From contig DASXSU010000031.1 in assembly GCA_036505795.1 (NCBI GenBank), positions 3,256 through 67,255 on the forward strand: a stretch of DNA of 64,000 nucleotides, read 5' to 3'. Below, one piece after another: positions 45,761-58,433 of this stretch. The translations under genes and the position numbers were made by a program. Source of the DNA: Nitrospirales bacterium. GTDB taxonomy: Bacteria > Nitrospirota > Nitrospiria > Nitrospirales > NS-4. Position 1 is the first letter of the stretch; each line of letters starts with the position of its first letter. The notes beneath the pieces are model-generated. The model was not told the origin of the DNA. It saw only the letters and a list, made by a program, of their open reading frames with translations, and searched no databases.

Positions 45761-45930
45761 TTATCTTCAGTCACCCTGATCTTGTTGAAGGGTCTGCGGT
45801 GAACTGAACTTTCCGCTGAATGGTGAGTAACCCTAATTAACAAAGAGAAAGTCGCCCGTCCCCTTTCACTTCAAGGTAGGACAAGGCCACCATTTGCTGA
45901 CTTCCGGATTGATTGAGCTCATCGATGAGC

Positions 45931-46293
45931 CTAGCTCTGGCTCTTCCGTTCGAGGTTCTCCACGCGCTCGTTGAGGTGGTGATAGGAGCTGCGGATCAAG
46001 GCATGCGTTTCGCGAAAGCGTTCGTCGATCCGGACCTGGTCCTGAGCATAGCGCCCTTCGACAAAGGTGGCAAACCCTTCGGCCACAAGCTTGACTTGAT
46101 GGCGAAGGTCTTCGATCAGGATGCCATTATGACGCTTGACCTCGTCAAACCCCACATGCATCTCGCCGCGCATCCCTTCGAACTTCCCTTCGAATTCCTC
46201 CCGCAACTCTTCGAAGCGCTGGTCAATTCCCGTAAAGCGCCGGTCAATTCTCGCAAATCGCTCATCTAAATATTGAACCAGTTCCTGATCCAT
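45931..46293 (-). CDS. hypothetical small coiled-coil protein with ERF/IDxRF repeats
   Basis: 120 aa, GGAG RBS 9 nt upstream, GC3-rich codons. MDQELVQYLDERFARIDRRFTGIDQRFEELREEFEGKFEG...; no family recognised. Confidence 0.55.
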   Translation of the reverse strand: MDQELVQYLDERFARIDRRFTGIDQRFEELREEFEGKFEGMRGEMHVGFDEVKRHNGILIEDLRHQVKLVAEGFATFVEGRYAQDQVRIDERFRETHALIRSSYHHLNERVENLERKSQS

Positions 46294-46316
46294 TACCGCC
46301 GCTCCGCCGTGAATAA

Positions 46317-46345
46317 AGACTAGACTCCGGCATTATTCTTGTCAA
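46317..46345 (-). promoter_or_regulatory. candidate promoter of the 120-aa gene
   Basis: Minus strand reads TTGACA (46345-46340), 17 nt, TAGTCT (46322-46317), about 24 nt upstream of ATG 46293. Confidence 0.4.
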
Positions 46346-46436
46346 TGAGACACGGGAGCCGCAAATAGGTTAAACCAGACGTGAACCGGTGAAGGCGGTC
46401 TTCGGGCAAGCCGGGTAGAGGCGAATCTGCAAAGCT

Positions 46437-47417
46437 TTAGGGCGTGCTCTCGATCGGCAGTCTCGTCAGCGAGAAGGGATTGACACGGGAGCCATTCAGC
46501 CAAGCTCCCCAATGCAGATGCGGGCCGGTTGCGCGGCCGCTCTTGCCGACAGTTCCAATAATCTGGCCACGCTCCACCCGATCGCCTTGCTTTACTTTCG
46601 CCGTTTGCAAATGCGAATACATAGTGTAGAGGCCCAAACCGTGGTCCAGGATCACGCTCCTGCCGCTAAAGAAATGGTCATCGACCATGCGGACAATCCC
46701 ATCGTTCGTGGCTCTGAGCGGTGTGCCAAGAGGCGCGGCAATATCCTCACCGGTATGCTGATTGCGCGGCTGGCCATTTAAAATGCGCCGGCCCCCAAAA
46801 GCCCCCGTCATCACGCCATCTACCGGCACCACGAACGGCTTCACCCAGAGGCGCTCCGGTTCGGAGCTTCCGAAGACCAGCCGGATTTCCTCGCGCTCCC
46901 TGGCGATTCGCTTCAACGCGGCGGCGTCCGGATCAACCTGACCTTTCGGCAACGTCAGACGTTGCTCCCGGAAATCCTCTGCAGCCACGGCAATCGGAAA
47001 CACCTGCTGCCGGCCGCCCTCAGACGAGGTGAACTCAACCAGAAGATCCGCAGTCCCCGGGGGATCAGCCATGTCGATGCCCACAAGGGCGGCAAATTCA
47101 TCTTCCGAAATTTTGAAAAACGGGATGCGGCGACCGAGTAGCGTCCCGAGAGCCGATATCGGGTGATCGTCGACCTTGATGCGCAGGTAAAGAATTCCCC
47201 CTTGTTTCCCGGACAAGGAGAGTGAGTGACCGACAACTGGGGAAGGGCCACTCTCTGGAGCAGCCGGACCGCCAATCGGGGGAATGTCGACAGACGCGGT
47301 TGCGAGAGCAGCGAGCGATAGCACCCAGGCAATAAGAGCAGGGAGGACCACGTCAGCGGAAGGCGCGCTGGCCTCCGACTTGTGAGAGCAGCTCCTCCAC
47401 CCGTCGGTTCGTGGCAC
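46437..47417 (-). CDS. M23-family metallopeptidase (catalytic residues intact), secreted
   Basis: HTGEDIAAPLGTP (HxxxD) and GPHLHWGAW (HxH); hydrophobic N-terminal LPALIAWVLSLAALATASV. Start is ATG 47417 (65-nt overlap with pafA) or GTG 47351. Confidence 0.8.
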   Translation of the reverse strand: MPRTDGWRSCSHKSEASAPSADVVLPALIAWVLSLAALATASVDIPPIGGPAAPESGPSPVVGHSLSLSGKQGGILYLRIKVDDHPISALGTLLGRRIPFFKISEDEFAALVGIDMADPPGTADLLVEFTSSEGGRQQVFPIAVAAEDFREQRLTLPKGQVDPDAAALKRIAREREEIRLVFGSSEPERLWVKPFVVPVDGVMTGAFGGRRILNGQPRNQHTGEDIAAPLGTPLRATNDGIVRMVDDHFFSGRSVILDHGLGLYTMYSHLQTAKVKQGDRVERGQIIGTVGKSGRATGPHLHWGAWLNGSRVNPFSLTRLPIESTP

Positions 47418-48729
47418 TGAAGGGGTCCATACAGAGAATCGTCTCTTCCCAATAGCCGTTCAGTTTGAGATAGGTCCAATCCACCGTGTACGATCGATTC
47501 TTCGCCCGGGCAAAGCGTATAAAATCGCCGCGGACCTTCGCCCGCGTGCTTTGGGGCGGGGTCGTCATCGCGCGCTGGACGTCCTCTTCCGGCACGAGCT
47601 TCTCCACCAGCTCGCGTTTTTCAAGGAGGTAATATAAGCCGCGCGACCGTTTGACGTCGTGGTACTGCAGGTCCATCAGCATAATGCGCGGGTCGTCCCA
47701 GCCGCACCCTTTTCGCTCCATGTACTGCTGCATTAACTGCTTCTTCACCACCCAATCCACCTCGTGGCAAAGCTGCATGGGGTCCTCTTCCAACCGGTCG
47801 AGCACCCCCGCCCACCGGCGCACAACGTCGGCCTCTACCGCGTCCTCCTCAGTGGACCAGAGATATTCCATCGCCCGCTCAAGATAGATCCGCTGAATCT
47901 CGATCGCGGTCAGCTCACGCCCATCTTCCAACTTGATTTTTTTCTTCAGAGTGGTATCGCGCGCAATCTCCCGGATCGCCTTCACCGGATCGTCGAGTTC
48001 GATACCATTGACCGTAAATCCGTCCTCGATCATCGACAACACGAGCGCCGCGGTCCCCACCTTTAGATATGTGGCGTGCTCGGACATGTTCGAATCGCCG
48101 ACAATAATATGTAGCCGCCGGTACTTCTCGGCGTCGGCATGCGGCTCATCACGGGTATTGATAATGCTCCGGGACGAGGTCGTGGAGGAGGACGTCTTCT
48201 CGTGAATGTGCTGTGCGCGTTGAGACAGGCAGAGCTGGGTCTTGCCGGAGAGCTTTAACACCTTGCCCGCGCCCGCGAAGACCTGCCGGGTCACAAAGAA
48301 CGGGATCAACTGCTCCGTGACCTTCCAAAAGTCCACGTCCCGTCGCATCAAAAAGTTTTCATGACAGCCGTAGGTATTACCCAACGAATCGGTGTTGTTT
48401 TTGAAGATATAAATTTCACCGGAGAGGCCTTCCTCGCGCAAGCGTTCTTCAGCCGCGGGCAGGCAGGCTTCCAGCAGCCGCTCACCCGCTTTGTCGTGGA
48501 TCACCAGATCCATGACGTTGTCACACTCAGGGGTCGAATATTCGGGATGGCACCCGGTGTCCTGATAAAATCGGGCCCCGTTGACCAAGAACGCATTTGA
48601 GGGCCAGCTATTTGGAATCAAGCCTTCGAAGATATAACCGAGGACTTTTTCGATCGGCAGGTAGATCCGGCCGTTCGGCGAGAAAATCAGGCCGTATTCG
48701 TTCTCAAGACCGAAGATGCGCGGCTTCAT
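47353..48729 (-). CDS. pafA: Pup--protein ligase-type (PafA-like) carboxylate-amine ligase
   Basis: 458 aa: IFGLENEYGL...NGARFYQDTGCHPEYSTPECD...TRDEPHADAEKYRRLHIIVGDSNMSE, collinear with mycobacterial PafA. Lacks the ~35-aa insert of the paralog. Confidence 0.8.
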   Translation of the reverse strand: MKPRIFGLENEYGLIFSPNGRIYLPIEKVLGYIFEGLIPNSWPSNAFLVNGARFYQDTGCHPEYSTPECDNVMDLVIHDKAGERLLEACLPAAEERLREEGLSGEIYIFKNNTDSLGNTYGCHENFLMRRDVDFWKVTEQLIPFFVTRQVFAGAGKVLKLSGKTQLCLSQRAQHIHEKTSSSTTSSRSIINTRDEPHADAEKYRRLHIIVGDSNMSEHATYLKVGTAALVLSMIEDGFTVNGIELDDPVKAIREIARDTTLKKKIKLEDGRELTAIEIQRIYLERAMEYLWSTEEDAVEADVVRRWAGVLDRLEEDPMQLCHEVDWVVKKQLMQQYMERKGCGWDDPRIMLMDLQYHDVKRSRGLYYLLEKRELVEKLVPEEDVQRAMTTPPQSTRAKVRGDFIRFARAKNRSYTVDWTYLKLNGYWEETILCMDPFSATNRRVEELLSQVGGQRAFR

Positions 48730-49415
48730 GAAGACGCCAAGAGCGTTCGCAGCTCCGAGGGAGCAAGCCGCCGGAAGGTCCGGCCCTGTCGGTTGCGATC
48801 CAGCACGGCAACTTCCAACCCATCAGGTCCTAATTTTTGATTTGTCACGCTGTCCAAGGCTTCGACGCTCAGCTTTAGAGCGTCCCGTAAAGAAATGGTA
48901 CCTGCTGCTGAGCGTCCCTTGAGAAAGGCCAAGAGATTTTCGAACTTGCCCCCGATCACCGCGATCCCTCGCTCGTCAATGATGCTGCCGTCAAAAGAGA
49001 TTCGGTACATCTCGTTGCTCTTTTCGCCTTCCCCGACCTCGACCACCAGAATTTCGACCTCCAACGGCTTGGGGTCGGTACTGAAAATCGATCCGATGGT
49101 CTGCGAGTAGGCATTCGCGAGAGACTTGGCGGTCACGTCCTCGCGACTGTACATATAGCCCTTCAGGTCCGCGTGCCGAATCCCGGCTTTCCGGAGAATT
49201 TCATACTCATTGTACTTGCCGGCCCCTGAAAAAGCGATGCGGTCGTACATCTCGGAGATCTTATGAAGGGACGCGCTGGGATTGTCCGCAACCAGGAGAA
49301 TGCCATCGGCATTTTCCATGGCGATGATGGACCGGCCCTTGGCAATACCCTTCTTGGCATACTCGGCCTTATCGGCCATCATCTGCTCAGGAGAGACGTA
49401 GTATGGTAATGCCAC
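48726..49415 (-). CDS. prcA: 20S proteasome alpha subunit
   Basis: MALPYYVSPEQMMADKAEYAKKGIAKGRS...LHKISEMYDRIAFSGAGKYNEYE, very similar in layout to M. tuberculosis PrcA. Confidence 0.9.
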   Translation of the reverse strand: MALPYYVSPEQMMADKAEYAKKGIAKGRSIIAMENADGILLVADNPSASLHKISEMYDRIAFSGAGKYNEYEILRKAGIRHADLKGYMYSREDVTAKSLANAYSQTIGSIFSTDPKPLEVEILVVEVGEGEKSNEMYRISFDGSIIDERGIAVIGGKFENLLAFLKGRSAAGTISLRDALKLSVEALDSVTNQKLGPDGLEVAVLDRNRQGRTFRRLAPSELRTLLASS

Positions 49416-49417
49416 GG

Positions 49418-50242
49418 CTACCCCTTCTCCCGGCGGCTTGCAATCAGTGCCCGACAGGCGTCGGCGATCTGCGCTTCCTGAAGATCGCGGACCCCTTCTT
49501 CGGTGATCATTTTGATGGTCGGATAGATTCCACGGATTAAATCCGGCCCACCCGTTCCCACATCTTCTTCCGCCGCATTGTAGAGCGCCTCCACGGCTAC
49601 CTTCAGCGCGTCGGATTCGGGGAGATCCCGCCGGTAGAGCAGCTTCATCGTATCCCGAGCGTCCTTGCCACCGGAGCCGACGGCGTAATACTCGATTTCC
49701 TCGTAGCGTCCGCCCGTCACATCGTATTTGAAGATCCGGCCCTCTCGGCGCTTCAGATCGTACCCTGCGAAAATCGGCACTACCACCAAGCCCTGAAAGG
49801 CCATGGGCAGATTGCCCCGAACCATCTGCGCCAGCTTATTTGCCTTTCCCTCGCAGGAGAGAATATCGCCTTCCAGTTTCTCGTAATGCTCCAGCTCAAT
49901 CTGAAACAGGCGGGCAAGTTCGAGGGCCGGTCCCGCCGCTCCAGCGATGGCAACAGCTGAATGCTGATCGGTCCTGAACACCTTGTCAATTCGGCGAGAG
50001 GCCACCTGAAAGCCCTCGGTCGCCTGCCGATCGCCGGCGATCAGGACTCCGCCCCGGAATCGGATCGCAAGGATCGTCGTGCCATGCGGGACTGGCGGCA
50101 TGCCGGTTGACGTCGAAAAGGGGGTGCCGGGCGCCGAACGGGATCCGGGCTCGGCCAAGGGGGAGCCCAAAGAACCGGGGCGGCTGTTTACGAGAAAATC
50201 GTAGAAGCTTGACCCTGGATTATCGTCCCTGTGCAGCGGCAC
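49418..50242 (-). CDS. prcB: 20S proteasome beta subunit with propeptide
   Basis: Propeptide SSFYDFLV... (cf. Mtb SSFTDFLR), processing site PHG/TTILAIRF (Thr1) and LELEHYEKLEG. GTG start 7 nt after the dop stop. Confidence 0.9.
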   Translation of the reverse strand: MPLHRDDNPGSSFYDFLVNSRPGSLGSPLAEPGSRSAPGTPFSTSTGMPPVPHGTTILAIRFRGGVLIAGDRQATEGFQVASRRIDKVFRTDQHSAVAIAGAAGPALELARLFQIELEHYEKLEGDILSCEGKANKLAQMVRGNLPMAFQGLVVVPIFAGYDLKRREGRIFKYDVTGGRYEEIEYYAVGSGGKDARDTMKLLYRRDLPESDALKVAVEALYNAAEEDVGTGGPDLIRGIYPTIKMITEEGVRDLQEAQIADACRALIASRREKG

Positions 50243-50249
50243 GGGGCGG

Positions 50250-51731
50250 TCAGGCCTTCAACTTGGTCAAGAGAGAATCGACCGTATCGGATTCGTCCAG
50301 TAAGCCTTTGGTGAGCGATTCGGTCCCGCGCGTGGGTTCCATGAGCGGGACTTTCTTGATGGCGGCATTGCCGATATCGAACAGCACCGATGTCCAACTT
50401 GCGGCATAGACTTCCTGCGGCCACTTCTTCACACAGCCCGCCCGAAAATAGGCGCGGGTTTCGGTTGGCGCATGGCTCTCCGCACGGAGCACCTCGGCAT
50501 CCGACACAATCCGTTCGATGTGATGCCCTCGCTCGAGCGTGAAATACAGCCCTTTCTCCGGCCGCACATCGTGATACTGAAGGTCCATCATCGCCGCACG
50601 AGGGTCATCCCAGCCACACCCCTTCCGCTCGATGTAGGCTTCGATGAGAGACCGCTTGGCCGTCCAGTCCAGTTCGCGCACCAGATCACGAGGATCGTGC
50701 TCAAGCTTATCAAGCGTCTCTTCCCAGCGCACCATGACCTCCTTGACCGGGACAGTGAGCTCATGGCTGGCATAGAAATCCTGCGCGGCCTTCAAATAGG
50801 CACGCTGAATGGCGATAGCAGTCATGGGCTTCCCGCCGCTGAGGCGAAGGTCCGCCTTAACCGCGAGATCCCTGGAGACCTGCTTAATCGCCTGGACGGG
50901 ATCTTCGACGTCGATCGGCGGAAGGGGCCAATCGGCTTCGACCATGTCGAGAAGAATCGCCATCGTTCCGACCTTCAGATAGGTCGAACATTCCGCCATA
51001 TTCACATCCCCGGCGATGACATGCAGACGACGATACTTGGCCGGATCGGCATGCGGTTCATCCCGGGTATTGACGATGGGGCGTTTGACCATGGTGTTGA
51101 GATCTACGAGCGATTCAAAGAAATCGGCTCGCTGGGATATCTGATACTGACACGGCGCGGTTTGATTCTCGGCCCCAATCTTGCCGGCCCCTGCGTAGAT
51201 CTGGCGGGTGACAAGAAACGGAAGCAAGGCGCGCACGAATCGTTCGAAGGCTACTGTCCGGCTCACAAGATAATTCTCGTGATAGCCATAGCTATTGCCT
51301 TTTCCGTCCGTGTTGTTCTTATAGACGAGGAACTTTCCTGGTCCACGCACCTGTTCAACACCGCGAAGCGCCGCGGCGACGATCCGCTCCCCCGCCTTTT
51401 CGTAGGCCACGACTTCCCTGGCGGTCACGCATTCCGGGCTGGAGTATTCGGGATGTGCGCCGTCGACATAGAGCCGACCGCCGTTTGCGAGAACTTTGTT
51501 CAGCAACCGGTTGTAGTCCGGACCGGGTCGCTCTCTCTCGCCCTCGACTTCGAAGCCCCGAATATCAAGCAGTGGGTTCTCATTCTCGTAGTCCCACAGA
51601 ATTTTCGGGGACGGAAAATGCGGGTAATGATTGATTAGAAACAGGGAATTTGAAACGGGGTCGGCGGCGTCCGTATCGCGGGTGGCGATGCCGAACTCAG
51701 TCTCCGTCCCCAGGACTCGCTTGATCATCAT
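50250..51731 (-). CDS. dop: Dop-type deamidase/depupylase
   Basis: 493 aa: VLGTETEFGIA...WDYENENPLLDIRGFE...NGGRLYVDGAHPEYSSPEC...TRDEPHADPAKYRRLHVIAGDVNMAE. About 35 aa longer than the PafA-like paralog. Confidence 0.8.
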   Translation of the reverse strand: MMIKRVLGTETEFGIATRDTDAADPVSNSLFLINHYPHFPSPKILWDYENENPLLDIRGFEVEGERERPGPDYNRLLNKVLANGGRLYVDGAHPEYSSPECVTAREVVAYEKAGERIVAAALRGVEQVRGPGKFLVYKNNTDGKGNSYGYHENYLVSRTVAFERFVRALLPFLVTRQIYAGAGKIGAENQTAPCQYQISQRADFFESLVDLNTMVKRPIVNTRDEPHADPAKYRRLHVIAGDVNMAECSTYLKVGTMAILLDMVEADWPLPPIDVEDPVQAIKQVSRDLAVKADLRLSGGKPMTAIAIQRAYLKAAQDFYASHELTVPVKEVMVRWEETLDKLEHDPRDLVRELDWTAKRSLIEAYIERKGCGWDDPRAAMMDLQYHDVRPEKGLYFTLERGHHIERIVSDAEVLRAESHAPTETRAYFRAGCVKKWPQEVYAASWTSVLFDIGNAAIKKVPLMEPTRGTESLTKGLLDESDTVDSLLTKLKA

Positions 51732-51755
51732 GCTGCCGTCTCAGGTGAATACAAA

Positions 51756-53513
51756 TCAGAGATAATGGCCGGTGGTGACGGTCTCAATCCGACGGGACTC
51801 GTTGGAGCCAGCCGTAATGGTACGGACATGGACGATCCTATCGGCTTTCTTCCCGGCGATCTTCGCCCAATCGTCTGGATTGGTCGTGTTCGGCAGGTCT
51901 TCATGTTCCTTGAACTCGTCCCGTACGGCCTTCAGAAGGTCCTCGGCCTTGATGCCCCGTTCTCCCTTGGCCAACAGGCGTTTAATGGCGTATTTCTTGG
52001 CACGCGACACGATCCCTTCGATCAAGGCCCCGCTGGCGAAGTCCTTGAGGTAAAACGTCTCCTTGTCGCCGTTGCCGTACGTGACCTCCAGATACTGGTT
52101 CTCTTCGCTCAAGGCGTACATCGATTCGACTGTTTGCGTGATCAGACGCTCCACGGCTCGTGTCGCATCCTCCCCATCCTGTGTGAGTTCCTGAGCATGC
52201 CAAGGAAGATCGGCGGTCAGGTATTTCGAAAAGATATCCTTCGCCGCCGCTTTGTCCGGGCGGTCGATTTTTATCTTCACGTCCAACCGGCCGGGACGGA
52301 GCACGGCCGGATCGATGAGATCCTGCCGATTACTGGCGCCGATGACAATGACGTTTCGCAACCGCTCCACGCCGTCGATCTCGGACAAAAATTGGGGCAC
52401 GATGGTGGACTCCACATCTGAGGAAATGCCGCTGCCACGCGTGCGAAAAAGCGCGTCCATCTCGTCAAAAAAGACAATGACCGGGAAGCCGTCGTCCGCT
52501 TTCTCCTTGGCCTTCTTAAAGACTTCGCGAATCTGGCGCTCTGATTCCCCGACGTATTTGTTGAGAAGTTCCGGTCCCTTCACATGCAGGAAGAAACTGC
52601 GGACTTCTTTCGACGTCAGATGCCCGAGTTTGTGCGCGATCGAATTGGCGACCGCCTTGGCGATCAGGGTCTTGCCACAACCTGGAGGACCGTACAGAAG
52701 CACCCCCTTAGGAGCCCGCAACTTGTGTTCCTTGAAAAGCTCGGGATGCAGAACCGGCAACTCCACGGCATCCTGGATCTGCTCGATCTGGTCGTGGAGT
52801 CCGCCGATGTCCGTATACTTGATGTCCGGCACCTCCTCTAGCACCAATTCCTCGACTTCGGACTTCGGGAGCTTTTCGAGCAAGTAGCCCGAGCGCGCGT
52901 CGTACAAGAGGTGATCGCCGACGCTCAGTCGCTGTACCAGCAGCGGTTCGGCGAACTCTGCAACCCGCTCCTCATCAGTCCGCAGCGTCACGATAGCTCG
53001 TTTTCCATCGAGATTGTCCTTCACGCGGACGACTTCGCCCTGCACATCAAACCCTCGGCATTCAATCACATTCAAGGCTTCGTTGAGGATGACTTCCTGG
53101 CCCTTGCGGAGATCTTTAACGCGAATGGATGGGTGTAGGTTGACCTTCAGCTTGCGACCGGTGACATAGACGTTCACCGTTTCATCGTCATTCGCGCCCG
53201 AGTAGATCCCATAGGAGGCCGGCGGAGCGGTAAGTTTTTCCACTTCCATCCGCATGGCCTCGATCCGAGACTTTGCTTCCTGAAGCGCCTCGGTCAGTCG
53301 ATCATTCTGTTTGTGCACCTGCTCAAGCTGCGCTCGCGTCTGGCTCAGCCGGCGCACCTCTTCTTCGAGAGAACGGATCTGAACCAGGAGTTTCTCTTTG
53401 TCGCGCTGCTCATCGTGCATGCCGCCCTCCTCAGAGTGCTCATCGGACAGGCGCTCGGTTAACTTCTTCACGGTATTCCGAATCGAACTCAATCGCCCGG
53501 GAGCCTTCTTCAT
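51756..53513 (-). CDS. mpa: proteasome-associated AAA ATPase (Mpa/ARC)
   Basis: N-terminal coiled coil, OB domains, GPPGCGKT Walker [16 protein letters not shown]-terminus is ...TGHYL (cf. mycobacterial GQYL tail). Confidence 0.9.
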
Positions 53514-53560
53514 CGATGACGCCTTACTCGGTGCAAAAACGCCTCAACACTATTTAGATT

Positions 53561-54244
53561 CTAGCATCGCGTTCCTTGAGGGTCAACAGCCCCTCCAGCC
53601 ACTTCCGTAGGTGGCCACTTCTCAAGTTCAGTCAAAAACTCTTTGCAGGCGCGCTCCACGTCACTCGCAGCCATCACACTCCCTACAACCGCGACGCCAT
53701 GTGCGCCCGCATGCCGCACATCGCGTACGCGCGCCGGCGTGATCCCGCCGATGCCGAACAGAGGAAGCCGGCAGTGTCGTCGCGCTCGCTCGAACTCCGG
53801 CAGACCGATCGGCGGACCGAACGCGCGTTTCGATGGCGTTTCGAAGATTGGACCGAGTACCACAAAGTCCGCCCCGGCCGATTCGGCGCGGAGCGCTTCC
53901 TCGGCTGAATGCGCCGAAATCCCTATGATGGCGCTCTGGCCCATCAGGCGGCGCGCAACCAACGGCGCAATCCCGTGCGCGGGCAGATGCACCGCGCCGC
54001 TCCCGACCGTCATTGCCAGGTCGATCCGGTCGTTAATGGCGAGTCTCGCCCCCTGCGCCGTGGCCAGCTGCAACAAGTCGCGAGCGAGCGACAGTAATGG
54101 CCGTGTCGGGAGATCTTTTTCACGAAGCTGGATGGCGCGCACCCCTGCTCCAAGGGCCACGCGGCAAACATCAAGGAGGGATCGCCCCTGAACCTGGTGC
54201 CGATCGGTAATTAAATAGAACGAAAAATCAACCCTGTGCCCCAT
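53561..54244 (-). CDS. thiE: thiamine-phosphate synthase
   Basis: FYLITDR...IQLREKD...INDRIDLA...GISAHS...DFVVLGPIFETPSK...FGIGGI. Confidence 0.85.
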   Translation of the reverse strand: MGHRVDFSFYLITDRHQVQGRSLLDVCRVALGAGVRAIQLREKDLPTRPLLSLARDLLQLATAQGARLAINDRIDLAMTVGSGAVHLPAHGIAPLVARRLMGQSAIIGISAHSAEEALRAESAGADFVVLGPIFETPSKRAFGPPIGLPEFERARRHCRLPLFGIGGITPARVRDVRHAGAHGVAVVGSVMAASDVERACKEFLTELEKWPPTEVAGGAVDPQGTRC

Positions 54245-54273
54245 AACGGAGGTCAGCGGAGGATCAAGAGTAC

Positions 54274-55047
54274 CTACAACATTCCCTCGATGGGACTGCT
54301 CGCGGTCGCGTACAGCTTCCTCGGGATGCGGCCGGCTTTAAACGCCAGGCGTCCTGCCCACACGGCATACTTCATGGCTTCCGCCATGACGATCGGCTCC
54401 TTCGCGCCCGCAATCGCAGTATTCATCAACACCGCATCGGCGCCGTACTCCATGGCCAATGCGGCATCCGAGGCCGTCCCGACACCCGCGTCAACGATGA
54501 CCGGGACCTTGACGGCTTCCATTAAAATCTTCAGGTTGTACGGATTGCGAATCCCCAGACCCGAACCAATAGGCGCCGCCAGAGGCATCACGGCAGGACA
54601 ACCAAGATCTACCAGGCGCTTCGCCACAATCGGATCATCATTGGTATAGGGCAAGACGATGAATCCTTCCTTCACTAAAATTTTGGCCGCTTCGAGCAAG
54701 CCCGCCGTGTCCGGAAATAACGTCTTCTCATCCCCGATGACTTCCAGTTTCACCATATCGGAGATGCCGGCCGCGCGCGCCAGCCGGGCATATCGAAGCG
54801 CATCTTCGACGGTATAGCAACCGGCCGTGTTCGGCAGGATTTTGTATTTTTTGGGACTGAGATAATCCAATAAATTCTCGGATGCTCGATCGGTAATGTT
54901 TACTCGCCGCACGGCGACCGTCACCATATCCGCTCCCGAGGCCTCGATCGCTTTTTGCGTTTCGATGAAATCCTTGTATTTACCCGTGCCAACCCATAGA
55001 CGGGATCCGATTTCAACGCCGGCGATGGTCAGCACGTCATCCTTCAT
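54274..55047 (-). CDS. thiG: thiazole synthase
   Basis: From ATG 55047: [24 protein letters not shown]...VTVAVRR...LPNTAGC...[13 protein letters not shown]. Confidence 0.9.
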
Positions 55048-55337
55048 GCGATCTCCTTGCCTCCGCCCGCCGCCCTGGGAGTCATCGACCCCTTGCAACG
55101 AAGAGCAACGGGTGCCCCGGACAGACTCCTTGTCCCCCCGCCGCCGCCAATAAACCCGATCACCTCGACTCGATCCCCGTCGCGCAGGGCAGTCCCTTCA
55201 AAAGCGCGCCGATCCACGATCGTGAGGTTCACTTCGACCGCCACCTGATTACTTCGGATCTTGAGGTCCGATAAAAGAGAAGCGATCGAGCAGGCTTCCG
55301 GCACATCCCGTGACTCCCCGTTCAGCACAATTCGCAT
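55044..55337 (-). CDS. thiS: ThiS sulfur-carrier protein with a ~30-aa extension beyond the C-terminal Gly-Gly
   Basis: From ATG 55337: [25 protein letters not shown]...[16 protein letters not shown], then [29 protein letters not shown] to the TGA overlapping the thiG ATG. Confidence 0.75.
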
Positions 55338-55411
55338 GCTTCTCGGCATCTTATCATACGGCTGCGAAACCCTGTCAATGCCACGGCCCATCACCGCGCT
55401 TCGTGACGCTC

Positions 55412-55440
55412 TTGGCGCGGCTCGTTGTGATGCCTATAAT
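55412..55440 (+). promoter_or_regulatory. candidate promoter giving a leaderless mRNA for the HhH gene
   Basis: TTGGCG (55412-55417), 17 nt, TATAAT (55435-55440). The ATG at 55446 is 5 nt after the -10 box, with no room for an RBS. Confidence 0.4.
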
Positions 55441-55445
55441 ACGCC

Positions 55446-56406: not shown

Positions 56407-58071
<1,665 letters not shown>

Positions 58072-58130
58072 TTAAATTCAACTGTAAAAATACACTTTTT
58101 GGCTGTCTGCCTGAGCTTGTTGCGGCGATG

Positions 58131-58433
58131 CTATTTGTCGAAGATGCCTAGAATATCTTCTTCTTTGATGATCAGATAATCGGTGCCCTCGACATTAATC
58201 TTGCTGCCGGAGTATTTATCGAAGAGGATGATGTCGCCGACCTTCACGGATTTCACTTCAGCGCCGCATCCCTCGATTTTCCCACGCTGAGGCTTTTCCT
58301 TAGCCGCATCGGGGATATAAATCCCCCCTGCTGTCCGCTCTAACTCCTCGGTATAGCTGACGAAGCAACGATCTTTGAGAGGCTTAAACCCTATGGTTGC
58401 TGCTGCTTTCTTCTCGGCTGTTTGCACTGCCAT
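58131..58433 (-). CDS. groES: co-chaperonin GroES
   Basis: FKPLKDRCFVSYTEELERTAGGIYIPDAAKEKPQRGKI...; 100 aa, upstream of groEL. Confidence 0.95.
   Translation of the reverse strand: MAVQTAEKKAAATIGFKPLKDRCFVSYTEELERTAGGIYIPDAAKEKPQRGKIEGCGAEVKSVKVGDIILFDKYSGSKINVEGTDYLIIKEEDILGIFDK

What the first reader, a model, noticed from the sequence alone, without database searches (positions are those of the whole stretch)
47353..53513. Complete Mpa-Dop-PrcB-PrcA-PafA proteasome operon with no slot for a Pup/UBact modifier gene
Seen: the minus-strand order is mpa, dop, prcB, prcA, pafA, separated by 24 nt, 7 nt, 2 nt and a 4-nt overlap. That leaves no room for a 55-70 aa gene between dop and prcB, where actinobacteria keep pup. 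I hand-read the nearby gaps (45761-45930, 46294-46436, 53514-53560, 55338-55445) on both strands. None holds a small ORF ending in Gly-Gly-Gln/Glu or another Gly-Gln/Glu terminus. The machinery looks intact. Both ligase-type (458 aa) and Dop-type (493 aa) paralogs are present. PrcB keeps its propeptide and the HG/TT Thr1 site. Mpa ends in HYL, like the mycobacterial GQYL docking tail. Established: Pup in Actinobacteria, and UBact reported for Nitrospirae and other Gram-negative phyla, are normally encoded inside this cluster. Inference: the modifier is relocated, too divergent to recognise, or replaced by something undescribed.
Basis: partly seen in the sequence, partly recalled or inferred. 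Interest (0 to 1): 0.7.

Follow-up and report, generated by a model that had tools for sequence, protein, structure and literature searches.

The report
Proteasome operon whose Pup gene moved
This is an ordinary, intact bacterial Pup-proteasome operon from an uncultured Nitrospira-like bacterium; the small tag gene (pup) is missing from it because in this whole family pup sits at another place in the chromosome, not because a new kind of tag is in use.

Summary
On the minus strand, mpa, dop, prcB, prcA and pafA are packed with 24, 7 and 2 nt gaps and a 4-nt overlap. All five pass NCBIfam equivalog cut-offs. No Pup or UBact sequence occurs in any frame of the 64-kb window, or in 8.7 kb beyond its right end.

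The absence is a lineage trait, not a puzzle. Of 80 related Nitrospirota genomes, 79 have the same pup-less operon with the same flanks (thiS-thiG-thiE ... M23 peptidase). Five other Nitrospirota loci keep a canonical pup between dop and prcB in that same context; the two included in the tree branch basally.

Nitrospiraceae do carry a highly conserved canonical Pup (65 aa, ending QKGGE or QKGGQ). It is a stand-alone gene between hppA and recJ-relA in four divergent lineages and in 119 of 120 metagenome loci. In Ca. Nitrospira bockiana, one chromosome holds both the pup-less operon and this pup, about 50 kb upstream of mpa.

The window's five genes are under strong purifying selection (dN/dS 0.015-0.13). 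Simple relocation is therefore the best explanation (about 0.88). I could not see the window organism's own pup, because the expected position lies outside the sequence I could reach. Interest is low.

The parts
51756..53513 (-). mpa/arc, the proteasomal AAA+ ATPase (585 aa). It has an N-terminal coiled coil, two OB domains, an AAA domain and a C-terminal ...TTGHYL docking tail.
   Evidence: TIGR03689 738.5 bits against a cut-off of 504.75. Pfam Prot_ATP_ID_OB_N, Prot_ATP_ID_OB_C and AAA. Best solved relative is M. tuberculosis Mpa, 7PX9, E 3e-194. Translation.
50250..51731 (-). dop, the depupylase/deamidase (493 aa).
   Evidence: TIGR03688 539.9 bits against a cut-off of 492.3; it scores lower on the PafA model. 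Pfam Pup_ligase E 1.5e-169.
50243..50249 (-). The 7-nt dop-prcB junction. This is the position where pup (about 200 nt) sits in the Nitrospirota loci that keep it in the operon (L073, L087, L090, L092, L095). No remnant of pup is left here.
   Evidence: Searches show pup at this junction in relatives. Searches show no Pup-like sequence here.
49418..50242 (-). prcB, the 20S proteasome beta subunit (274 aa), with a propeptide and the PHG|TT Thr1 processing site.
   Evidence: TIGR03690 314 bits against a cut-off of 191.9. The alignment shows invariant H53-G54-T55-T56 and a conserved N-terminal GSSF motif.
48726..49415 (-). prcA, the 20S proteasome alpha subunit (229 aa).
   Evidence: TIGR03691 306 bits against a cut-off of 139.
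47353..48729 (-). pafA, the Pup-protein ligase (458 aa). It is the most conserved gene of the operon: 97% amino-acid identity to L001, dN/dS 0.015.
   Evidence: TIGR03686 562.9 bits against a cut-off of 551.3. Best solved relative is C. glutamicum PafA, 4B0T, E 5e-111. dN/dS.
53561..55337 (-). The conserved upstream flank: thiE (53561-54244), thiG (54274-55047) and thiS (55044-55337). The same flank is present whether or not pup is in the operon.
   Evidence: Pfam TMP-TENI and ThiG. JGI gene calls in L094. Same order in L087, L090, L092 and L101.
46437..47417 (-). The conserved downstream flank: an M23 peptidase. Its true start is probably downstream of the ORF's first start codon, which overlaps pafA.
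   Evidence: Pfam Peptidase_M23 E 5e-30. The same neighbour follows pafA in L087, L090 and L101.

Best explanation
The window holds a complete, functional Pup-proteasome machinery operon (mpa-dop-prcB-prcA-pafA) from an uncultured Nitrospirales lineage. In this lineage the pup gene was removed from its ancestral slot between dop and prcB.

The tag is still a canonical Pup. In the Nitrospiraceae radiation it is a stand-alone gene between the H+-pyrophosphatase gene (hppA) and recJ-relA/spoT, tens of kb from the operon. The pathway would then work as in actinobacteria. PafA ligates the C-terminal Glu of Pup to substrate lysines. Mpa binds Pup through its coiled coil and feeds the substrate into the PrcAB core. 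Dop removes Pup, and deamidates it where it ends in Gln.

Shown here: the operon is intact; pup is absent from about 73 kb; the pup-less arrangement is lineage-wide; canonical pup exists at the unlinked locus in related genomes, including one chromosome that holds both.

Inferred: the window's own organism has pup at such a locus. If the spacing of Ca. N. bockiana holds, that would be about 40 kb beyond the right end of the window.
For: (1) All five genes pass curated equivalog cut-offs.

(2) Of 80 related genome loci (dop plus or minus 8 kb), 79 lack any Pup or UBact. Only L073 keeps pup between dop and prcB.

(3) Other Nitrospirota (L087, L090, L092, L095) show thiS-thiG-thiE-mpa-dop-pup-prcB-prcA-pafA, mostly followed by the M23 peptidase. 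Their flanks match the window, so this is the same locus with and without pup.

(4) A paralog-rooted NJ tree places the pup-bearing L073 and L087 basal, and puts all pup-less operons, including the window's clade, in one group.

(5) Canonical Pup proteins (PF05639, ending NAEEFVKNYVQKGGE/Q) are annotated in N. defluvii, Nitrospira sp. ND1, Ca. N. bockiana, Kam-Ns4a and many MAGs.

(6) Their context is hppA-pup-recJ-relA in four divergent lineages (L081-85, L088-89, L097, L099). RelA identity among these lineages is 73-80% and RecJ identity 57-67%. The same context holds in 119 of 120 metagenome loci.

(7) Same chromosome: in Ca. N. bockiana OZ224215.1, pup lies at 1,084,023-1,084,220 and the pup-less operon at 1,134,690 onward, 50.5 kb apart. 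Its Dop is 73% identical to the window's, which is within the range separating Nitrospira lineages from each other.

(8) dN/dS is 0.015-0.13 for all five genes between the window and L001-L003. PafA is the most constrained, so the ligase is still in use.
Against: The window organism's own pup was not observed. It is absent from the 64-kb window and from 8.7 kb beyond it. The rest of the JGI contig and genome could not be read.

No Pup protein in the hit lists could be tied to the window's clade (90-97% Dop relatives). Pup is too conserved for 90% clusters to separate lineages.

The NJ tree has no bootstrap support values.
Confidence: 0.88

Rival explanations
1. The modifier has been lost in the window's clade. 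The proteasome, Mpa, PafA and Dop persist for Pup-independent roles, such as ATP-dependent degradation of unfolded proteins, or as a system in early decay.
For: No pup in about 73 kb. No Pup protein could be assigned to the clade.
Against: PafA and Dop have no known role without Pup, yet PafA is the most conserved gene of the operon (97% identity, dN/dS 0.015-0.03). More than 70 Dop clusters of this clade are all full length. Sister lineages with the identical pup-less operon keep a canonical pup elsewhere.
Confidence: 0.04
2. A novel or highly divergent modifier, neither Pup-like nor UBact-like, replaces Pup and is encoded at an unrecognised place.
For: Only the absence of a recognisable gene in the window. 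The 120-aa coiled-coil ORF at 45931-46293 next to the operon has no known family.
Against: Pup in this phylum is extremely conserved: the C-terminal 25 residues are nearly invariant across lineages. There is therefore no trend towards divergence. The 120-aa ORF ends in ...RKSQS, has no Gly-Gln/Glu terminus, and has no homolog in any of 101 related loci. No small ORF is conserved near the operon. The PafA and Mpa sequences remain close to Pup-using homologs.
Confidence: 0.04
3. Artefact: pup was missed because of a frameshift or assembly error, or a wrong prcB start hides a small gene in the dop-prcB region.
For: JGI called a shorter prcB (227 aa), leaving about 148 nt after dop. A 58-aa ORF (51728-51904) overlaps the mpa/dop boundary.
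Against: The 148 nt are the in-frame PrcB propeptide, whose GSSF(Y/F)D motif is conserved in relatives with and without pup. The 58-aa ORF is an out-of-frame overlap inside mpa, with no Pup or UBact similarity. The same tight junction recurs in 79 independent assemblies. tblastn across stop codons finds nothing.
Confidence: 0.01

Closest known systems
Actinobacterial Pup-proteasome system (M. tuberculosis mpa; dop-pup-prcB-prcA; pafA)
   Same: It has the same five machinery proteins, all at equivalog level. These include the Mpa C-terminal Tyr-Leu tail, the PrcB propeptide with Thr1, and separate Dop and PafA paralogs.
   Different: pup is not between dop and prcB, although a 2012 review calls the gene order 'rigidly conserved' in pupylation-competent organisms (PMC3511204). 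All five genes are packed into one tight operon. The host is a Gram-negative Nitrospirota bacterium.
Nitrospiraceae Pup-proteasome system with unlinked pup (e.g. Ca. Nitrospira bockiana OZ224215.1; N. defluvii Pup CBK42955.1)
   Same: The operon order and flanks are identical (thiS-thiG-thiE-mpa-dop-prcB-prcA-pafA-M23-HD-DUF2062) and there is no pup in the operon. Dop is 66-73% identical.
   Different: In those genomes pup has been located, at hppA-pup-recJ-relA. For the window's organism it has not. The window also has groES-groEL and a 120-aa ORF inserted in the flanks.
Nitrospirota operons that keep pup in place (L073 Nitrospiria bacterium, L087, L090, L092, L095)
   Same: Same flanking genes and same machinery.
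   Different: They keep a 64-67-aa pup immediately upstream of prcB. The window has 7 nt there.
UBact systems (PF20513 / NF033388) of Verrucomicrobia, Armatimonadota and others
   Same: A homologous Mpa/Dop/PafA/proteasome machinery in Gram-negative bacteria.
   Different: The tag family differs: UBact ends in ...RYRQR(T/S)G(E/Q). No UBact was found in the window or in 80 related loci. The Nitrospirota examined use Pup-type tags.

Membership tests
Pup-proteasome system | Proteasomal AAA+ ATPase Mpa/ARC with coiled coil, OB domains and a C-terminal docking tail | tested here: met
   TIGR03689 738 bits against a cut-off of 505. OB_N, OB_C and AAA domains. Ends in GHYL. Matches 7PX9 at E 3e-194.
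Pup-proteasome system | Pup ligase PafA | tested here: met
   TIGR03686 562.9 bits against a cut-off of 551.3. Matches 4B0T at E 5e-111. N-terminal GLENEYG motif.
Pup-proteasome system | Depupylase/deamidase Dop, distinct from PafA | tested here: met
   TIGR03688 539.9 bits against a cut-off of 492.3. It is 35 aa longer than PafA.
Pup-proteasome system | 20S core: PrcA plus PrcB with a propeptide and catalytic Thr1 | tested here: met
   TIGR03691 and TIGR03690 both above cut-off. HG|TT is invariant in the alignment.
Pup-proteasome system | A pup gene (60-70 aa, C-terminal Gly-Gly-Gln/Glu; PF05639 / TIGR03687) in the genome | tested here: inconclusive
   Absent from the 64-kb window plus 8.7 kb. 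Present at an unlinked locus in related genomes that have the same operon.
Pup-proteasome system, canonical gene order | pup lies directly between dop and prcB | tested here: not met
   The dop-prcB gap is 7 nt. The same holds in 79 of 80 related loci.
Pup-proteasome system | Covalent pupylation of lysines and Pup-dependent degradation | not testable with these tools
   This needs proteomics or biochemistry. Purifying selection on all five genes (dN/dS 0.015-0.13) is only indirect support.
UBact system | A UBact gene (PF20513 / NF033388, ending ...RQR(T/S)G(E/Q)) in or near the cluster | tested here: not met
   An HMM of 120 UBact proteins gave a best E of 0.23 in the window and 0.69 in 80 loci. 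No ORF has such a terminus.

The most novel reading that the evidence does not exclude
The window's clade of uncultured Nitrospirales, unlike its Nitrospira relatives, has no canonical pup anywhere. Its strongly conserved PafA, Dop and Mpa would then act on a different, undescribed small protein tag.
Probability: 0.04. Interest if true: 0.8.

Novelty: new member of a known kind. Interest (0 to 1): 0.15.

Why it matters
The finding matters little as a discovery. It removes a false lead: a 'modifier-less' proteasome operon in Nitrospirota is the normal state of the family and does not point to a new tagging system.

One modest point of interest remains. The gene order of the pupylation locus, described as rigidly conserved, is broken in a whole family. 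There the tag gene sits next to recJ and the stringent-response gene relA/spoT. This arrangement is conserved in 119 of 120 environmental loci sampled. Tag supply may therefore be regulated separately from the machinery in these nitrite oxidisers, but this is untested.

Tried and rejected
- The 58-aa ORF at 51728-51904, which ends 4 nt into dop. It is an out-of-frame overlap inside mpa with a Pro/Ser/Arg-rich sequence and no family hit.
- The 120-aa ORF at 45931-46293. It is a coiled coil that ends in KSQS, has no family, and has no homolog in 101 related loci.
- All six-frame ORFs ending in G-Q/E. None is Pup-like.
- Spacers between prcA and pafA, and between dop and prcB, in relatives (L004, L037, L045, L064, L076, L079, L080). 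They hold no tag ORF; L080 holds repeat insertions.
- ThiS as an alternative tag, because it sits just upstream and has a GG motif. I rejected it: PafA chemistry needs a C-terminal Glu gamma-carboxylate, and thiS is present in the same place in relatives that do have pup.
- The shorter prcB start called by JGI. I rejected it because of the conserved propeptide motif.
- The UBact paper is not in the library. A UBact sequence recalled from memory was validated against NF033388 and then replaced by 120 real sequences.
- No window gene has a homolog in any pup locus flank, so relative position could not be inferred that way.
Full report
**Observation.** The minus strand of 47353-53513 carries five tightly packed ORFs of 585, 493, 274, 229 and 458 aa. 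They are separated by 24, 7 and 2 nt and a 4-nt overlap. Pfam and NCBIfam identify them as Mpa, Dop, PrcB, PrcA and PafA, and each passes the curated equivalog cut-off. Mpa ends in ...TTGHYL. PrcB has the PHG|TT processing site and a propeptide whose GSSF(Y/F)D motif is conserved in relatives. That motif fixes the long start codon and the 7-nt dop-prcB gap. PafA and Mpa are close to the solved C. glutamicum PafA (4B0T) and M. tuberculosis Mpa (7PX9).

**No tag gene in reach.** None of the six-frame ORFs ending in Gly-Gln/Glu looks like a tag. phmmer with M. tuberculosis Pup and a Nitrospirota Pup found nothing significant. Neither did an HMM of 109 Nitrospirota Pups or sensitive tblastn. A UBact query found nothing, and nor did an HMM of 120 database UBact proteins (PF20513). 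The window matches JGI metagenome contig 3300036862|Ga0376051_0000014 from window position 45,855 onward. The 8.7 kb of that contig beyond the right end of the window also lacks Pup and UBact.

**The pup-less operon is a lineage trait.** A scan of one genome per species returned 80 Nitrospirota loci with Dop 62-90% identical to the window's. The order thiG-thiE-mpa-dop-prcB-prcA-pafA-M23 peptidase recurs, and dop abuts prcB in nearly all of them. Only L073 (a Nitrospiria bacterium) has a Pup...NYIQKGGE, between dop and prcB.

Searching the protein database with that Pup returned 155 Pup-family proteins. For some, the context is the full ancestral operon thiS-thiG-thiE-mpa-dop-pup-prcB-prcA-pafA, in L087 and L090 followed by the M23 peptidase (L087, L090, L092, L095). 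The flanks equal those of the window, so this is the same locus with pup present or absent. A paralog-rooted NJ tree of Dop and PafA places the two pup-bearing loci it includes (L073, L087) basal and puts all pup-less operons, including the window with L001-L003, together. This fits a single departure of pup from the operon. The tree has no bootstrap values.

**Where pup went.** Many Pup hits are annotated as Nitrospira: N. defluvii CBK42955.1, Nitrospira sp. ND1, Ca. N. bockiana, Kam-Ns4a and numerous MAGs. They are 65-69 aa long and nearly invariant over the C-terminal half (...KEDIDKLVDEIDDVLEKNAEEFVKNYVQKGGE).

Their context is always hppA (H+-pyrophosphatase), then pup, then recJ and relA/spoT, with no proteasome gene within 6-8 kb (L081-85, L088-89, L097, L099). 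The flanking RelA (73-80% identity) and RecJ (57-67%) show that these loci come from divergent lineages. A degenerate DNA pattern for this Pup type matched exactly the 11 unlinked loci among those held. Of these, 119 have hppA, recJ or relA next to pup, and one (L131) is operon-linked.

**Same-genome demonstration.** In the 4.46-Mb chromosome of Ca. Nitrospira bockiana (OZ224215.1), pup lies at 1,084,023-1,084,220 between hppA and recJ-relA. The pup-less operon thiS-thiG-thiE-mpa-dop-prcB-prcA-pafA-M23-HD-DUF2062 lies at 1,130,486-1,143,967. Both are on the same strand, with 50.5 kb from the pup stop to the mpa start. Its Dop is 73% identical to the window's. Nitrospira lineages differ from each other by similar amounts (69-80%). 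The synteny downstream of pafA (M23, HD-domain protein, DUF2062) also matches the window.

**Is the machinery in use?** Between the window and its three closest relatives (L001-L003), dN/dS is 0.015-0.13 for all five genes. It is lowest for pafA, which is 97% identical to L001 at the amino-acid level with synonymous sites near saturation. More than 70 full-length Dop clusters belong to this clade. A ligase and a depupylase under such constraint imply a substrate tag.

**Conclusion and mechanism.** The best explanation (about 0.88) is simple relocation. The organism uses a canonical Pup encoded elsewhere, most likely at an hppA-pup-recJ-relA locus. The pathway would work as in actinobacteria: PafA ligates Pup, Mpa recognises Pup and unfolds the substrate, PrcAB degrades it, and Dop reverses the tagging.

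Shown here are the intact machinery, the absence of pup in about 73 kb, the lineage-wide pattern, and the unlinked canonical pup in relatives, including one chromosome that holds both. The presence of such a pup in this particular organism is inferred. If the N. bockiana spacing holds, it would lie about 40 kb beyond the window, still on the JGI contig, in a part I could not fetch because the look-ups were exhausted.

**Rivals.**
- True loss of the tag (0.04) is disfavoured by the constraint on PafA and Dop.
- A novel tag (0.04) has no positive evidence. The only unexplained small ORF nearby (45931-46293, 120 aa) lacks a suitable terminus and has no homolog in 101 related loci.
- An annotation or assembly artefact (0.01) is excluded by the conserved propeptide and by recurrence of the junction in 79 independent assemblies.

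**Comparison with the known.** This is a Pup-proteasome system, not a UBact system. It differs from the textbook locus only in gene order. A 2012 review states that the order is rigidly conserved in pupylation-competent organisms (PMC3511204). I found no paper in the library that describes the unlinked pup of Nitrospira, but the gene is already annotated as Pup in public Nitrospira genomes. I rate the finding as a new member of a known kind and of low interest (0.15).

Noticed in passing
window 55044-55337 (-), overlapping the thiG start at 55047: The thiS ORF reads 31 codons past the canonical ...EVIGFIGGG terminus (97 aa as called by JGI) and overlaps thiG. Relatives vary: a stop right after GGG (L073, L017), tails of 2-25 aa in many Nitrospira, and an in-frame 327-aa ThiS-ThiG fusion in L002. 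A sulfur carrier needs a free Gly-Gly end, so these forms would need processing, or the poly-G run attracts frameshifts.
   Followed up: partly
window 45931-46293 (-): A 120-aa predicted coiled-coil ORF lies between the M23 peptidase and the HD-domain gene. It has no NCBIfam hit and only a weak sub-threshold Pfam match, and no homolog in any of 101 related loci. It is absent from the same spot in Ca. N. bockiana.
   Followed up: partly
L081-L085, L088-L089, L097, L099, L102-L221 (related loci): In Nitrospiraceae, pup is a stand-alone gene in a very stable hppA-pup-recJ-relA/spoT neighbourhood (119 of 120 metagenome loci). It has 85-210 nt spacers on both sides. The closeness to the stringent-response gene may mean separate regulation of the tag; this is untested.
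   Followed up: partly
window 45,855 (left limit of JGI contig Ga0376051_0000014): The only public contig carrying the window's exact Dop starts at window position 45,855, so the left 45.8 kb of the window comes from another assembly. A protein from the left end is not on record. Gene order across the point (pafA-M23-HD-DUF2062) matches N. bockiana, so no chimera is suspected.
   Followed up: partly
window 56407-58433 (-): groES-groEL sit between the HHH_8-domain gene and the S41 (CtpB-like) peptidase. In Ca. N. bockiana (L101) those two genes are adjacent, with no chaperonin genes between them.
   Followed up: no
L080 9476-9717 and 11251-12147: One marine-type Nitrospirales genome has repeat-like insertions in the dop-prcB and prcA-pafA spacers. 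The recurring translated motif is ...GEGRVRG.../...PLPWWEREG.... They hold no tag ORF.
   Followed up: no
L131 (Hainich H14 metagenome contig, 1341 bp): This is the only metagenome locus whose Pup has the 'unlinked-type' C-terminal signature (KLVDxIDDVLE...) but sits between dop and prcB. Its Dop fragment is only 55% identical to the window's. It could be an intermediate or an independent lineage.
   Followed up: no
P0201, P0219, P0224 (Pup proteins from long-read assemblies); L088: Several database 'Pup' proteins have N-termini such as MRWKNRS... These are the normal MEKQERK... read in another frame. hppA, recJ and relA are split in L088. These are frameshift errors in nanopore assemblies, not variants.
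   Followed up: partly
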